From contig OZ024740.1 in the NCBI GenBank assembly GCA_964016885.1, positions 306,900,001 to 306,964,000 of the forward strand: a stretch of DNA of 64,000 bases, in the 5' to 3' direction. The notes under the pieces are model-generated. The model did not search any database, was not told where the DNA came from, and worked only from the letters and a program-made list of their open reading frames with translations. This document shows positions 26,101 to 64,000 of the stretch, in pieces (the stretch's first letter is position 1; each line of letters opens with the position of its first letter). This stretch comes from Eledone cirrhosa. Its lineage: Eukaryota. The translations under genes were made by a program, and so were the position numbers.

Positions 26101-27267
26101 GATAATCGTGTTTTTAACAGTGGCTCTTTCAGTCTGTTAAGATTTTCAACGTGTCGTTTGGCAGACCTTAAAATATCAGTATGCAGAGGTATATTTTTAT
26201 GTATAGCACATACAGTACTACTAAGTGATCACCAGCGAAACTTCACAAAGTATGCTTTGTACTTTATATGCCACTTAAAGTATTGAGTGCTTCTCTCTGT
26301 TAATGTTAGATTCATTTTATGTATAAGTTAACGCAAAATACACACTACATTGACACACACTCGCATGTGTGTGTGTCTATTATATGTGCGTTAATTATAT
26401 ATGTATTTGTGTGTGTGTGTGCATATATATATATACTTACACACACACAAATACATATGTAATTAACGCACATTTATATATATATATATATATGAGCATA
26501 GATGGATTTATGTGTGCATATATATATATATTTGTGTGTGTGCATATATATAATATATATATATATGAGCATACATGGATTTATGTGTGCATATATATAT
26601 GAGCATACATGGATTTATGTGTGTGTATATATATATATATATATATATATGTGTGTGTGCGATCATACATGAATTTATGTGTGTATTTATATATATATAT
26701 TTGTAACGAACGAATTGTGGTAAGGAAACAGATGGACCATAACGCACCAGAGTACTCAATACTTAGGGTAGTAGAGTGGGTTATAGGAGAAAGTATGACC
26801 CCGACGGCAGAGCTCAAGCCGTTTCGACGGCTATTTCTGGACTAGGGGTTATACTATCTCCTATATATTTGTATACAGATATTGCTATGTGAATAAGGAT
26901 TTCGTTTCGTAACCACATAGTTTAGGATTCAGTCGCTTGGTGCGGCACTTTGGGCAGGTGTATTCAACAATAGGCTACATTTGACCAATGTGTCGTCGTT
27001 TATATATGTGTGTGTTTATGCATGTCTATATTTACGACTGTGTATGTGTATATCCCATATAACTTAACGGTCCGCCAATATAAGTATCAGACTTGAAGGA
27101 AAAGTATTGGGGTTGATATGATCGACTTAATCTCGCACACACACATCTATGTGTGTGTGTATAAATATATACGTATATATGTATATATATATATATATAT
27201 GTATATATATGTAAATGGAAAAAATGAAACGAAATTTCATTTCTCACTCTTAGTAGGGCTGTTACTT

Positions 27268-27884
27268 AAATATAAGTATGCATACGTACATACATATATG
27301 TATACAGACGTACAGTAGTATGTATATATATGTACGTGTGGGCTCACCGAACATTTAATATAATGATCGGTTTGTTTGTAAACAAACAAAAAGCCCGAAT
27401 TAAGCCGTGCAGTGTTTAACAACCATCGTTGCCCTTTTGTTCAACACTGACAAAGGAACGCTGTACTAATTTCAAGCTTATTAGCTATCGTCAGCATCGT
27501 ATACCTTCCTGCCAGATAATTGAACGTCTGAAAGTATATACTTTCCTTATGCATATTAACGGCTGAGCAGCCTAATTTGCATATCGAGTGAGTTAGTCGG
27601 CCGGGAGCACCGAAAACGATAAATGGAGAAAATGAAAAAATGATAGCTAATAAGCTTCAAACTAGTACATCGTTCCTTTGTCAGTGTTGAACAAAACGGC
27701 AACGATGGTTGCTAAACACTGTAGGGCTTAATTCGGGCTTTTTGTTTGTTTACAAACAAACCGAGCATTATATTAAATGTTAGGTGAACCCATACGTACA
27801 TATATATGTGTGCATGTATGTATATATATACATAGTACTGTACATCTGTATACATATATGTATGTACGTATACATACTTATATG
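27268..27884. mobile_element. Foldback/MITE with about 220-bp inverted arms and a 150-bp spacer
   Basis: 27268-27489 is the reverse complement of 27642-27884, e.g. AAGCCCGAATTAAGCC / GGCTTAATTCGGGCTT and AAGCTTATTAGCTATC / GATAGCTAATAAGCTT. Confidence 0.85.
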
Positions 27885-28814
27885 TATATGTATATATATG
27901 TATATATATATGTATGTATATGTATATATATATATGTATGTATATGTATATATATGGATATGTATATATATGTATATGTATATATATGTATATGGATATG
28001 TATATATATATGTATATGTATATGTATATATATATGTATATGTATATATATATGTATATGTATATATATGTATATGTATATATATGTATATATATGTATA
28101 TGTATATATATATATATATGTATATATATATATATATGTATATATATATATATATGTATATATATATATATGTATATGGATATATATGTATATGGATATA
28201 TATGTATATGTATATATGTGTATATGTATATATGTATATATGTATATATGTGTATATGTATGTATATGTCTATATGTATATATGTGTATATGTATGTATA
28301 TGTCTATATGTATGTATATGTGTATATGTCTATATATGTATATGGATATATATGTATATGTATATATGTATGTATATGTGTATATGTATGTATATGTCTA
28401 TATGTGTATATGTATATATGTATGTATATGTGTATATGTGTATATGTGTGTATATGTGTATATATATGTATATGTCTATATGTATGTATATGTCTATATG
28501 TGTATATGTCTATATATGTATGTGTCTATATATGTATATGTCTATATATGTATATGTCTATATGTCTATATGTGTATATGTCTATATGTGTATATTATTA
28601 TATGTGTATATGTCTATATGTGTATATGTCTATATATGTATATGTCTATATGTGTATATGTCTATATGTCTATATATGTATATGTCTATATATGTATATG
28701 TCTATATATGTATATGTCTATATGTGTATATGTCTATATATGTATATGTCTATATGTGTATATGTCTATATGTGTATATGTCTATATGTGTATATGTATA
28801 TATATGTATATGTA

Positions 28815-31800
28815 TCATCATCATCATCATCATCAACGTTTAACGTCCGTGTTTCACGCTTGCATGGGTTTGGACGGGGGTTTTCCAACTTGAGGCAAGA
28901 GTGATTGTCTTGCTCGCATAGGACTGTCTGGCGGGTTTTCTACAGCTGGATGCCCTTCCTAACACCAACCACATTTACAGTGTGGGGCTGGGAGGTTTTT
29001 ACCGTGTTGCCTACACGGGCACATTACAGCGTGGACTGCCTGGCGGGTTTTCTACAGCTGGATGCCCTTCCTAACACCAACCACATTTACAGTGTGGGGC
29101 TGGGAGGTTTTTACCGTGTTGCCTACACGGCCACATTACAGCGTGGACTGTGTGTTTTTTTGTCGTAATACCTACACGATCTCATTTGTTTCGGCCTGGA
29201 TGTTGTGGCACCAACATAACTTTACATTGAAAGGGGCGGTGTGGATGGGCTGGGGGTGGTGGGACGGGGGTGTGTTTTGTTAGAGATGCCTACTGACTGT
29301 AGTAGGTTTTACTTTGTATTTAGGTAAGGCAGGTCTTCTCTATTACTGAGTACCGCCAAAGGTCTCGGTCCAGTGACATTGTCTTGGAGAGGTGTAAGCG
29401 TGTGAGGTCGGAATTTATCATGTCGTCCCAGGTTTTTCTGGGTCTGCCTACTCCGTGGCTACCGTCTATCTTTATTGCCCCGCACTTTGTTATACAGCTG
29501 TCGTCTTTCATGCGCATCACGTGACCATACCAACGTAGCCTTCTCTCGAGTAAACAACATCTGATCCCTCTTATTTCTAATTTTTTCCTTAGTTCGTTTA
29601 TGCTTAGTCGTTCACGTATATTACTATTACACATCCAGCGGAGCATGCAAACTTCGTTCCTCTCTAGTCTGCGTATATCCTCTGCACACAATGCCCAGGT
29701 CTCACTGCCATGCAGCATTGCTGTTCGTATGCAGGCATCATATAACCTGCCTTTCATTTTTAGGGAGAACCCTTTAGCGGCTAATAGTGGTATAAGCTCT
29801 CTGAACTTTTTCCATCCAGTTCTGACTCTAGCTACTGTACTTTCAGAGTACCCTCCCCCACTGCTGATTTTGTCACCCAGGTAACGGAAGCTGTCCACTA
29901 TTTCTATAGAACCCTCTGCGCAATTGAAAGAGCTAGTATTCTGTGGGCACTTGCTGCTACTTATTGCACCAGAGCACCGGCCACATGTAAAATCTATGTT
30001 CTTAGTTAGCTTACCTGTGATCCCACTACATCTTTTATGCACCCATACTTTGCATTTGGGACATAAAATGGAGTTTCTACCTACGCCCTTCCTACACACT
30101 GAGCATGGCCATTTCCCGGAAGGGACCGCCGCCTTATTTTCTTTCCTACAAACTAGAACTTTAGTCTTAGCCAGGTTAATTTTAAGGCCTTTTGATTCTA
30201 GGCCATGCTTCCATGTTTGGAATTTTTTCTCTAGCTCGGTCATTGATTCAGCTATGAGCATTAGATCATCTGCGTATAGGAGTTCCCATGGGCAGCCGGT
30301 CTTGAACTCCTCTGTTATAGCCTGAAGGGCAATAATAAATAGTAGGGGGCTAAGAACAGAGCCCTGATGGACACCAACTTTTACGCTAAACTCTTCACTA
30401 TATTCGTTGTTAATTCTAACCTTGCTGACTGTTTCTTTATACATGGCTTGTATAGCTCTCACAAGCCATTCGTCAACACCTAGTTTTCTAAGAGCCCACC
30501 AGATAATGGAACGGGGGACTCTGTCGAAGGCTTTCTCCAAGTCAACAAAAGCTAAGTATAGGGGTTTACTTTTAGCTAGGTACTTCTCCTGGAGTTGTAC
30601 AATGAAAAGAGCGTCTGTGGTACTTTTGCCTGACACAAACCCGAACTGCATTTCATCTAGATCAATTCTCTCTCTGATTAGTTGCGCTATTACTTTTTCC
30701 GTGACCTTCATGACCTGGTCAATTAATTTAATGCCTCTATAGTTACACCTATCTAGGGCATCTCCTTTACCCTTGTAACAGTTAATGATGATGCTGCTAT
30801 GCCAGTCCTTCGGAACAACCCCATTCTGTATGACTTGGTTTACTATCCGGGTGACCATGGTGTGTCCCACCGTTCCAGAGGCTTTCAGCATCTCAGCAAC
30901 TATTTCCGAAGGCCCAACCGCCTTACCTGTCTTCATATCTTTGATTGCCTTACTGTTTATACTACCTTCGACTAACACTGCTGGTCCCTCTATTGGGTCG
31001 ATGTGGGGGAGACTGTCTTTCTCCCATTTGTTCTCCTCATTTAGTAGCCTTTCGTAGTGACACTTCCAAGCTACCTTCTTATCAGCATCAGTGATGGCAA
31101 GTATGCCATCATCATTAAGTACACACTTCTCCCCGACAATATCACAGTTTTCCTTGACACATTGCCTAGCAATCCTGAACACCTCACGTTTTTGGTCCTC
31201 GCGTTGTAGAACATGCTTGAACTTTCTTTCCTCTGCTTCCCTTCTTGCGAAGTACACTTGTCTCCTAGCTTCCCTCCTGGCCACTTGATAGTCTTCTCTA
31301 CTTCCCCCATCCCGCCATACTTTCCAAGCCTGCTTTTTTGCCTTAATTGACTCCTCCACCTTACTGTTCCACCACCATGTTACTCTCCTCCTGCCTACAG
31401 GCCTGCTCCAGCCACAGACTTCGTCTGCTGCCATCAGCAGGTTTGCTTTCAGGAATTCCCACTGTTCCTCTATATTGTACGACTCTAATTGCTCTTCCTT
31501 ACTGTCGAAAGCATCAAGTAATATGCTTTGAAATTTATTTCTGGCTATGGGGTCCTTTAGCTTCCATATTTTTCTCCTGAGGATAGTCCTCTTCTGCTGT
31601 CTAGAACATCACGTCCTGACTATGAGGTCGCTAATTATCAGTCTATGTTGGGAGGTGCATTCTTCATGGGGGAGGGATTTAGTGTTAACAACAGACACTC
31701 TGTCACATCTTCTGGTAAGGATATAATCTACCTGGCTTGTGTGTTCCCCGGATCTATAGGTGATCAAGTGATTGTCTCGTTTTTTGAAGTTAGTGTTACA

Positions 31801-63337: not shown

Positions 63338-63441
63338 TAAAGTGTCTTGCTCAAGGAAACAACACATCACTCGGTCTGAGAATTGAACTCACAACCTTTC
63401 GATTGCAAGGCCAATGCTCTAACCACTAAGCCATGTGCCTA
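63338..63441 (-). mobile_element. Short tRNA-derived SINE family 2
   Basis: Reverse complement of 59940-60041. Confidence 0.85.
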
Positions 63442-63583
63442 TATATATATATATGTATATATATATGTATATATATATGTATATATATATATATATATGT
63501 ATATATATATGTATATATATATGGATATATATATATACATATATATATATATATATATATATACATATATATATATATATATA

Positions 63584-64000
63584 TCATCATCATCATCATC
63601 ATCATCAACGTTTAACGTCCGTGTTCCACGCTTGCATGGGTTTGGACGGGGGTAGTCCCACTTGAGGCAAGAGTGATTGTCTTGCTCGCATAGGACTGTC
63701 TGGCAGGTTTTCTACAGTTGGATGCCCTTCCTAACACCAACCACATTTACAGTGTGGGTCTGGGAGGTTTTTACCGTGTTGCCTACAAGGCCACATTGTG
63801 TGTTTTTTTGTCATGACACCTACACGATCTCATTTGTTTCGGCCTGGATGGCGCGGCACCAACATAACTTTACATAGAACGGGGTGATGGGGTGGGGGTG
63901 ATGGGGTGGGGGTGGGGTGGTGGGACGGGGTATATTTTGTTAGAGATGCCTACTGGCTGGAGTAGGTTTTACTATATATTTAGGTAAGGCGGGTCTTCTC
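63584..64000 (-). mobile_element. Young RTE copy 8 (3' end, runs off the window)
   Basis: (TCA)n, family 3' UTR and ORF end EKTRLT*. Confidence 0.95.

What the first reader, a model, noticed from the sequence alone, without database searches (positions are those of the whole stretch)
26370..64000. A TA-microsatellite niche shared by many unrelated young retroelements
Seen: about 20 insertions from at least 8 families (young RTE x8, old RTE, BovB-like RTE, a TAGA-tailed LINE tip, CR1-like, two PLEs, hammerhead islands, SINE x2). Essentially all are bounded by TA arrays, none is visibly inserted inside another, and no young RTE copy occurs in the first 26 kb. The tails are all TA-compatible: (TGA)n, (TAA)n, (TAGA)n, (TAT)n. 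Inference: APE- and GIY-YIG-bearing elements converge on (TA)n as a target. Each insertion splits the array, which re-expands and creates new targets, a self-reinforcing way to build kilobase TA arrays next to a promoter-like region. The locus may also act as a transposon trap or piRNA source.
Basis: partly seen in the sequence, partly recalled or inferred. Interest (0 to 1): 0.75.

Follow-up and report, generated by a model that had tools for sequence, protein, structure and literature searches.

The report
Retrotransposons chained through TA microsatellites
About twenty jumping-gene pieces from several unrelated families do sit here strung along TA repeats, but the same families sit in TA repeats all over this genome, so this is a dense example of a genome-wide habit, likely set by where the elements insert, and not a special trap.

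Summary
The cluster is real: 22 element pieces in 37.6 kb, nearly all abutting TA-type arrays. It is not a locus-specific niche. Copies elsewhere also abut (TA)n or (TATG)n: young RTE 31/38, CR1-like 27/29, Hydra-type Penelope 24/29, BovB-like RTE 21/23, its short partner 28/29, older RTE 11/29, SINE 15/29, against 6-8% background. Both flanks of a copy share array-specific interruptions, so the arrays were there first. TA arrays are about 6% of sampled DNA; 4 of 52 10-kb samples have at least 20% TA (cluster 24%). Corrections: the '(TAA)n tail' is not a tail (that copy is 3'-broken); the two SINEs are likely one inverted duplication; nesting occurs elsewhere; no young RTE in the first 26 kb is expected by chance. 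Addition: the BovB-like RTE carries TA/TAT repeats in its 3' UTR, and 7 of 29 copies are entered or broken there by other sequence. Re-expansion after insertion is weakly supported; a piRNA role is untested. Closest precedents: plant SaTar arrays, Hydra PLEs, RTE Tn-TA signature. This scan noted TA targeting in this genome before, on other DNA.

The parts
22000..26300 (.). CpG-undepleted, TA-poor stretch at the edge of a CpG-depleted 22-kb domain; likely a promoter region beside a gene body (inferred, no gene identified)
   Evidence: CpG o/e 0.08-0.42 over 1-22 kb, 0.74-0.99 over 22-28 kb
26420..26700 (.). Degenerate TA/TG array, left edge of the cluster
26705..27140 (.). Short non-coding repeat (26,705-26,845 matches a family that is palindromic and TA-flanked elsewhere); strong hairpin; the rest unclassified
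   Evidence: z -5.0
27214..27870 (.). Short repeat with internal inverted segments that carries its own TA/TG-rich stretch (right end approximate)
27871..28813 (.). TA array, TATG-type on + strand
28814..32088 (-). Young RTE-type LINE, 5'-truncated, (TGA)n tail
32089..33028 (.). TA array, TATG-type
33029..36062 (+). BovB-like RTE, truncated at both ends; the family normally runs on through a microsatellite-rich 3' UTR
36063..36464 (.). (TAA)n stretch resembling an inverted piece of the BovB-like 3' UTR, then a TA array whose polarity flips from TATG to TACA
36465..37894 (+). Hydra-type Penelope-like element, 3' part, with an inverted 5' piece (36,465-36,584) that encodes the CxCX5C linker
38014..39023 (+). 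Young RTE, 5'-truncated
39116..39889 (.). Non-coding repeat with a 115-bp inverted segment; palindromic, TA-flanked copies elsewhere; likely PLE-mobilised (inferred)
39932..41335 (-). CR1-like LINE, 5'-truncated (RT by Pfam; clade label recalled, not tested)
41340..43228 (.). TA array, TATG-type, split by a young-RTE 3' tip at 42,366-42,551 (-)
43229..43552 (.). Short composite repeat, unclassified
43759..45241 (+). Hydra-type Penelope-like element (RT end, CxCX5C linker, GIY-YIG-like nuclease, hammerhead-like core by eye), 20-bp 5' inversion
45374..45587 (-). Short repeat with a hammerhead-like core (by eye); palindromic in a nearby copy
45766..46858 (+). Young RTE, 5'-truncated, with a 112-bp duplication in the 3' UTR
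46859..48331 (.). TA array, 1,473 bp, TATG-type flipping to TACA at its right end
48332..54004 (+). Full-length young RTE: tandem ~500-bp 5' UTR units with (CA)n(TA)5, a 27-bp x35 minisatellite (49,257-50,201), open APE-RT-PHD frame (first ATG 50,394 to stop 53,648), (TGA)n tail
54096..54200 (+). 3' tip of an abundant element that ends in CCGCCTTAGA(TAGA)n; unclassified
   Evidence: 6 other copies
54884..58032 (+). Second RTE family (67% to the young RTE), decayed copy, (TGA)n tail
58223..59823 (+). Young RTE, 5'-truncated
59941..60040 (+). SINE head, cut at both ends; left arm of a likely local inverted duplication
60041..62264 (.). TA array, 2.2 kb, TATG-type flipping to TACA, split by a 70-bp young-RTE tip at 60,790-60,858 (+)
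62265..62862 (-). Short non-coding element with a 3' end like that of the BovB-like RTE; likely its non-autonomous partner
63340..63439 (-). SINE head, right arm of the likely inverted duplication
63585..64000 (-). Young RTE, 5'-truncated; runs 155 bp past the window

Best explanation
The locus is a chain of about 21 retroelement insertions in TA-type microsatellite, and the same families sit in TA-type arrays across the whole genome, likely because their endonucleases cut at TA steps and their short AT-rich RNA tails prime there. Shown: family-wide association with TA arrays, arrays present on both sides with matching interruptions, family-specific strength, and strand-specific use of TATG by the BovB-like pair. 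Inferred: each insertion by target-primed reverse transcription leaves target on both sides (plus a 10-40 bp duplication), so later elements land beside, not inside, earlier ones. Long arrays collect more insertions because they are larger targets. Array growth to kilobases is likely ordinary slippage, and the broken ends and the inverted SINE pair likely come from breakage at these self-complementary arrays. Some targets are supplied by the elements themselves: the BovB-like RTE carries (TG)n, (TA)n and (TAT)n in its 3' UTR, and other families enter there.
For: Young RTE: 31 of 38 independent other copies have (TA)4 or more within 12 bp of an end, 22 of 38 at both ends; background 8.5% and 4.1% from 52 evenly spaced 10-kb samples. 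30 of 38 have TA directly after the tail. 3' ends: CR1-like 27/29, PLE 24/29 by script (28/29 by eye), BovB-like 21/23 TA or TATG, short partner 28/29, older RTE 11/29; background 6.0-6.6%. SINE 15/29 at either end. The two flanks of one copy share non-TA interruption 10-mers (mean Jaccard 0.277; shuffled pairings 0.039, 0 of 5000 as high); TATG/TACA polarity agrees on both sides in 11 of 11 scorable copies. TATG lies on the element strand in 21:0 BovB-like and 23:1 partner copies, but 6:8 for the young RTE. Element count tracks TA content across the 52 samples (rho 0.62). 26 of 26 BovB-like UTRs located carry a (TA)4+ run; 7 of 29 UTRs are interrupted or broken, with a young RTE (L033), a hammerhead-type repeat (L054), a CR1 tip (L049), a restriction-like-endonuclease LINE (L037) and the family itself (L060) identified. 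Published: Hydra PLEs insert in (TA)n (PMC8557442, section 11 read); RTE/BovB cut at TA (PMC13295347, passages).
Against: The young RTE is 4-5 times denser here than TA content predicts (7 ends against 1.5-1.8 expected), and 9-12 more lie in the next 100 kb at average TA content, so a regional factor is unexplained; the window was picked for being extreme and the expectation rests on only 5-6 background copies. 7 of 38 young-RTE copies, 18 of 29 older-RTE 3' ends and 14 of 29 SINEs are not at TA arrays. Each sample is the 30-40 best matches of hundreds to thousands of candidates (young RTE on C1 and C2 only). No empty site from another haplotype was seen. Cutting preference was not measured; the thymine stretch of the Tn-TA signature was not tested.
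Confidence: 0.78

Rival explanations
1. Break capture: long TA arrays extrude cruciforms that host nucleases cut, and any retroelement RNA is copied into these breaks, so the convergence reflects array fragility more than element enzymes.
For: Unrelated enzymes converge; broken 3' ends, an inverted UTR piece, an inverted SINE pair and polarity flips occur in the window. AT/TA repeats form cruciforms and break in yeast and human cells (PMC12972899, PMC9890227; search listing and abstract starts only).
Against: Families differ in strength (38% to 97%) and the BovB-like pair is strand-specific for TATG, which a shared break source would not give. Intact tails and duplication-like flanks are the rule. 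Many targets are short (8 of 30 flank sums under 45 bp). Clean polarity flips are rare elsewhere (7 of 180 arrays).
Confidence: 0.12
2. Survival bias: insertions are near-random, but those in TA arrays or TA-rich non-genic domains are tolerated and persist.
For: The cluster lies outside a CpG-depleted, gene-body-like domain; there is a regional excess of the young RTE.
Against: Copies 99-100% alike, hence very young, are already 82% TA-associated. Base-level adjacency and strand polarity are not explained by selection. CpG o/e does not track TA content over 40 samples (rho -0.06).
Confidence: 0.04
3. The elements make the arrays: TA is added as a tail or during repair, so no target pre-existed.
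For: CR1-like and PLE 3' ends are almost always followed by TA while their 5' ends are less often so. In maize, TA targets of 6-8 bp are reported to grow to (TA)50 after TAFT insertion (as cited in PMC5907723, passage read). Two filled BovB-like UTR sites have 58 and 64 bp of TA against 8-35 bp runs in most unfilled ones.
Against: 5' ends cut at many different points also abut TA (28 of 38), and both flanks share locus-specific motifs, some complex. It holds in part only for repeats carried inside elements.
Confidence: 0.1
4. The locus is a dedicated transposon trap or piRNA source next to a promoter.
For: High density: about 5.8 pieces per 10 kb against 1.5 on average and 2.7 in TA-rich samples (library built from this window, so biased upward). 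Regional excess.
Against: No strand bias: 11 + and 6 - among oriented pieces in the window (sequence); 18 + and 16 - hits in the next 100 kb (hits are not all independent insertions). Similar mosaics occur in blind samples (L172, L177, L239, L250). 4 of 52 samples have at least 20% TA.
Confidence: 0.06
5. The chain is a misassembly joined through TA repeats.
For: A 200-N gap lies 5.6 kb past the window end; several elements are cut at arrays.
Against: The eight RTE pieces are distinct. Array polarity is mostly TATG from 27.8 to 48.2 kb across many insertions, as expected of one ancestral array or one strand bias, not of random joins. The family-wide results do not depend on this locus.
Confidence: 0.05

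Closest known systems
SaTar arrays of guayule, rice, sorghum, citrus (Valdes Franco et al. 2018, PMC5907723; abstract and passages read)
   Same: Unrelated families linked by (TA)n into non-nested, modular arrays; deletions that remove satellite plus element ends; proposed array growth after insertion.
   Different: SaTars are Mutator-like DNA transposons of plants; here the chain is made of retroelements (RTE, CR1-like, PLE, SINE) in an animal, arrays reach 2 kb, and nesting occurs through repeats carried inside elements.
Hydra clade of Penelope-like elements (Craig et al. 2021, PMC8557442; section 11 and passages read)
   Same: C-terminal GIY-YIG-like nuclease without the CCHH cysteines, CxCX5C linker, CxxC and CxH motifs, 5' inversions, insertion in (TA)n.
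   Different: No difference found; RT motifs (RWK, DKT) lie in the missing 5' part and were not tested.
RTE/BovB LINEs with the Tn-TA insertion signature (PMC6007223, PMC13295347; abstracts or passages read)
   Same: RTE-type APE elements whose target starts at a TA step; family-specific microsatellite tails proposed to steer cutting or priming.
   Different: Those papers describe dispersed TA steps after a T stretch, not (TA)n or (TATG)n arrays; PMC13295347 says BovB is rarely flanked by sequence like its tail, whereas the BovB-like family here is.
RTE-2_OV of Octopus vulgaris (Petrosino et al. 2022, PMC9115989; section 6 read)
   Same: RTE with C2H2 finger whose 3' UTR is mostly microsatellite starting at the ORF end, as in the BovB-like family here.
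   Different: No sequence comparison was possible; the paper reports no target preference in the passages read. A lead only.
MuTAnT, Micron, TAFT (PMC4486113, passages read)
   Same: (TA)n as a 'safe haven' target reached independently by several families.
   Different: Plant DNA transposons.

Membership tests
Hydra-clade PLE (43,759-45,241 and 36,465-37,894) | C-terminal GIY-YIG nuclease lacking the CCHH cysteines between GIY and YIG | tested here: met
   IIY...YVG with no Cys between them; read by eye, Pfam gave no match
Hydra-clade PLE (43,759-45,241 and 36,465-37,894) | CxCX5C linker; CxxC and CxH around the conserved E and N | tested here: met
   CSCRKPEAC and CPH, CxxC decayed; [13 protein letters not shown] and CKH; features
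Hydra-clade PLE (43,759-45,241 and 36,465-37,894) | Insertion in (TA)n | tested here: met
   24 of 29 by script, 28 of 29 by eye; second family TA-flanked in blind samples
Hydra-clade PLE (43,759-45,241 and 36,465-37,894) | Canonical hammerhead ribozyme | tested here: inconclusive
   Cores by eye; Rfam none; folds not significant for either PLE; my strict motif scan missed them
Hydra-clade PLE (43,759-45,241 and 36,465-37,894) | RWK and DKT motifs; placement in an RT tree | not tested
   Window copies lack the 5' part; no reference set at hand
RTE-clade LINE (young family) | Single ORF with APE endonuclease then RT; short-repeat tail; frequent 5' truncation | tested here: met
   One frame of 1,084 aa from the first ATG with Exo_endo_phos, RVT_1 and PHD; (TGA)5-8 tails and scattered 5' ends
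RTE-clade LINE (young family) | Placement in the RTE clade by RT phylogeny | not tested
   170 homologues of the same domain order, none of the 120 listed named by clade; the labels RTE and BovB-like are recalled
RTE with Tn-TA signature | Target begins at a TA step | tested here: met
   30 of 38 copies have TA directly after the tail; tail and target overlap, so the cut is not placed to the base
RTE with Tn-TA signature | T stretch about 10 nt upstream of the duplication | not tested
   Duplication borders are not resolvable inside TA arrays
SaTar-type modular array | Unrelated families linked by microsatellite | tested here: met
SaTar-type modular array | Members are Mutator-like DNA transposons | tested here: not met
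   All coding members are retroelements
SaTar-type modular array | No element ever interrupts another | tested here: not met
   True in the window; false at L154 (RTE tip inside an RTE) and in BovB-like UTRs
piRNA cluster / transposon trap | Strand-biased fragments | tested here: not met
   11:6 in the window; 18:16 hits downstream; dual-strand clusters would not show a bias
piRNA cluster / transposon trap | Source of Piwi-bound small RNAs | not testable with these tools

The most novel reading that the evidence does not exclude
A self-feeding retroelement community built this genome's roughly 6% TA content: an RTE lineage spreads TA, TG and TAT landing pads in its own 3' UTR, and RTE, CR1-like, Penelope-like and Dong/R4-like families have each specialised on one of these repeats (TA, strand-specific TATG, TAT), so every insertion adds targets and arrays grow into multi-family chains: an animal, retroelement counterpart of plant SaTar arrays.
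Probability: 0.3. Interest if true: 0.6.

Novelty: new variant of a known kind. Interest (0 to 1): 0.33.

Why it matters
If the targeting is enzymatic, this genome offers several APE-type LINEs with a strong natural preference for (TA)n or strand-specific (TATG)n, with an intact full-length copy in this window, which makes the question of how RTE tails and endonucleases choose targets directly testable. It would also explain transposon hotspots and part of the assembly gaps in such genomes, and it warns that microsatellite markers here are tied to mobile DNA. The locus itself has no shown function.

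Tried and rejected
Rfam at gathering score: 0 matches; by E-value only TA-driven miRNA models among the 150 shown of 441. Laying Logan contigs and RAD reads on 39,116-41,339: pieces were about 60 bp and came from many copies, so it says nothing on the assembly or on empty sites. No RNA holder listed for 21,100-25,900; not used as evidence. The protein Atlas gave no answer. The homologue search gave no clade names. 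Idea that TA arrays avoid methylated gene bodies genome-wide: true locally, no correlation over 40 samples. Idea that the SINE pair is a foldback family: 0 of 29 other copies has that form. Idea that polarity flips are a general growth mechanism: 7 clean flips in 180 arrays of 150 bp or more. Whether regional polarity means common descent or strand-biased mutation could not be settled: 27 of 30 adjacent pairs agree, but only 2 pairs lie more than 1.5 kb apart. No gene was identified in 1-26 kb from ORFs of 75 aa or more read by eye (they were not scanned against Pfam). Rows dropped before counts: the window's own copy in each family; one of two identical-flank duplicates (L217/L218); 6 BovB-like and 4-5 SINE copies whose 3' end was not found. 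In one search one of the 23 BovB-like 'ends' (L037) is a false anchor scored as negative. Literature searches found no paper describing multi-clade retroelement chains in (TA)n in an animal or TA targeting by cephalopod LINEs; the library lacks most subscription papers and Repbase reports, and no supplements were read (those of PMC8557442 list Hydra families and may cover these PLEs).

Full report
Observation. The window is G000:C1:306,900,001-306,964,000 of a 3.0-Gb genome. It is probably an octopod; this is recalled from SINE and LINE end motifs and echoed by earlier notes, not tested. TA-type arrays cover 24.4% of 26,001-64,000 and 0.3% of 1-26,000. Between the arrays lie 22 element pieces: eight of one young RTE-type family, a BovB-like RTE, a second RTE family, a CR1-like LINE, two Penelope-like elements, two SINE heads, a TAGA-tailed tip, a 600-bp non-coding element and five short non-coding repeats. 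36 of 41 ends touch (TA)4 or (TATG)2 by script; four of the five misses touch imperfect arrays. The chain runs 5.6 kb past the window to a 200-N gap.

The BovB-like copy has no (TAA)n tail. All 29 other copies continue past 36,062, and the family ends in (CAT)n followed by (GTAT)n. The TAA stretch in the window resembles an inverted piece of the family's own 3' UTR. The two SINE heads lack the same first bases, end at the same point, face each other and have matching array polarity on both sides. None of 29 other copies ends there, so one inverted duplication is likelier than two insertions. The block 48,332-50,201 is the tandem 5' UTR of a full-length young RTE with an open APE-RT-PHD frame. 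Both PLEs carry the CxCX5C linker and CxH motif of the Hydra clade, for which (TA)n insertion is published. Hammerheads were not confirmed by Rfam.

The decisive test: copies elsewhere. I took the best matches of seven families (40 scored of 398-3,037 candidates each, 30 fetched each, all 39 others for the young RTE) and 52 evenly spaced 10-kb samples as background. Young RTE: 31 of 38 independent copies have a TA run of 8 bp or more within 12 bp of an end, 25 at the 3' end, 28 at the 5' end, 22 at both; background 8.5%, 6.3%, 6.3% and 4.1%. These counts are conservative: two 5' ends were not reached and one abuts a gap. 3' ends of the others: CR1-like 27/29, PLE 24/29 (28/29 by eye), BovB-like 21/23, its short partner 28/29, second RTE 11/29, background 6.0-6.6%. 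SINE: 15/29 at either end, 5/24 at the 3' end. The preference is genome-wide and differs by family.

The arrays were there first. Copies cut at many different 5' points abut TA on both sides, and the two flanks share array-specific interruptions (mean Jaccard 0.277 against 0.039 for shuffled pairings, 0 of 5000 as high). TATG/TACA polarity matches on both sides in 11 of 11 scorable copies. The BovB-like RTE and its partner have TATG on their own strand in 21:0 and 23:1 copies, the young RTE in 6:8. That family- and strand-specificity points to element machinery (cutting and tail priming) and away from selection or passive capture at breaks. This step is inferred; no enzyme was assayed.

How unusual is the locus? 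TA arrays make up 5.8% of the 520 kb sampled, and 4 of 52 samples have at least 20% TA. Counts of these families rise with TA content (rho 0.62), and smaller mosaics of the same kind appear in blind samples. The cluster is still dense: about 5.8 pieces per 10 kb against 1.5 overall and 2.7 in TA-rich samples, with a library built from this window. The young RTE has 7 scored ends against 1.5-1.8 expected from TA content, and 9-12 more in the next 100 kb but 0-2 in the 100 kb upstream. A regional factor is therefore possible and unexplained, though the window was chosen as an extreme. The empty first 26 kb needs no special cause: 0.25-0.30 young RTE copies are expected, and it has almost no TA. 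It is CpG-depleted up to 22 kb and undepleted from there, which fits a gene body and promoter, but no gene was identified and CpG does not track TA across samples.

Feedback. Re-expansion after insertion is weakly supported. Summed flanks of young copies have a median of 217 bp against a length-weighted background median of 108 bp for single arrays, about what splitting alone gives. Each insertion can add a short duplication (candidates of 6-58 bp). A more concrete loop exists: all 26 BovB-like 3' UTRs located carry TA runs, with TG and TAT runs beside them, and 7 of 29 UTRs are interrupted or broken, by a young RTE and a hammerhead-type repeat at TA, a CR1 tip and a restriction-like-endonuclease LINE at TAT, and the family itself at TATG. 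The two TA sites so filled hold 58 and 64 bp of TA against 8-35 bp in most unfilled runs; n is two. This also shows that nesting occurs, as does an RTE tip inside an RTE 35 kb downstream.

Trap or piRNA source. Orientation is balanced (11 + and 6 - in the window; 18 and 16 hits downstream). No small-RNA data could be examined. Assembly: laying public contigs was uninformative. The eight RTE pieces are distinct and array polarity is coherent over 20 kb, which argues against random joins but is no substitute for long reads.

Relation to what is known. Non-nested arrays of unrelated elements linked by (TA)n are described for plant Mutator-like SaTars (PMC5907723). (TA)n insertion is described for Hydra and Naiad PLEs (PMC8557442). 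RTE and BovB LINEs cut at TA steps (PMC6007223, PMC13295347). RTEs are known sources of microsatellites (PMC2887409, abstract), and an octopus RTE with a microsatellite 3' UTR is known (PMC9115989). The O. vulgaris repeat annotation reports hotspots but no TA targeting in the two of three parts read (PMC13282606). My nine searches found no description of a multi-clade retroelement version in an animal. Earlier notes of this scan report TA targeting by PLEs and RTEs and TATG stacks elsewhere in this genome.

Verdict. Real observation, ordinary locus, a genome-wide trait that combines known behaviours in a new setting. New variant of a known kind; interest 0.33.

Noticed in passing
window 48332-50201: The young RTE's 5' UTR is built of tandem ~500-bp units containing (CA)n(TA)5; in this copy a 27-bp unit has expanded to 35 copies, whereas four other full-length copies (L213, L221, L226, L230) show about one.
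   Followed up: partly
window 27792-48200 and L163: Array interruptions keep one strand polarity over long stretches: mostly TATG on + from 27.8 to 48.2 kb, mostly TACA after; 19 of 19 TACA-type in L163. Common descent or strand-biased mutation.
   Followed up: partly
window 59824-63584: Palindrome-like block: SINE head, array, array, SINE head, with mirrored polarity; the arm with two insertions holds about 2,050 bp of TA, the arm without about 580 bp.
   Followed up: partly
L154:9403-9520 (about 35 kb downstream of the window): A 95-bp 3' tip of the young RTE with its tail is nested inside a long copy of the same family, near the point where window copies 38014 and 45766 are 5'-truncated.
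   Followed up: no
L037: A restriction-like-endonuclease LINE (Dong/R4-like by recalled motifs) is inserted in the (TAT)n run of a BovB-like 3' UTR.
   Followed up: partly
L236, L237 (C1 at 8.1 and 9.6 Mb): Two young RTE copies sit in an 18-bp-type satellite, not in TA.
   Followed up: no
L217, L218 (C1 at 342.35 and 341.60 Mb): The same very young RTE insertion with identical flanks at two places 750 kb apart: recent segmental duplication or uncollapsed haplotype.
   Followed up: no
window 1-25500: CpG-depleted domain to 22 kb, then a CpG-rich stretch with splice-donor-like motifs on both strands near 24.4-24.7 kb (by eye); likely the 5' end of a gene. It holds an old RTE remnant (11,085-12,606) and a 91-93 bp x5 tandem repeat (5,365-5,826).
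   Followed up: partly
L151:5561-5760 and L216: Assembly gaps of N lie next to TA arrays or young RTE copies.
   Followed up: no
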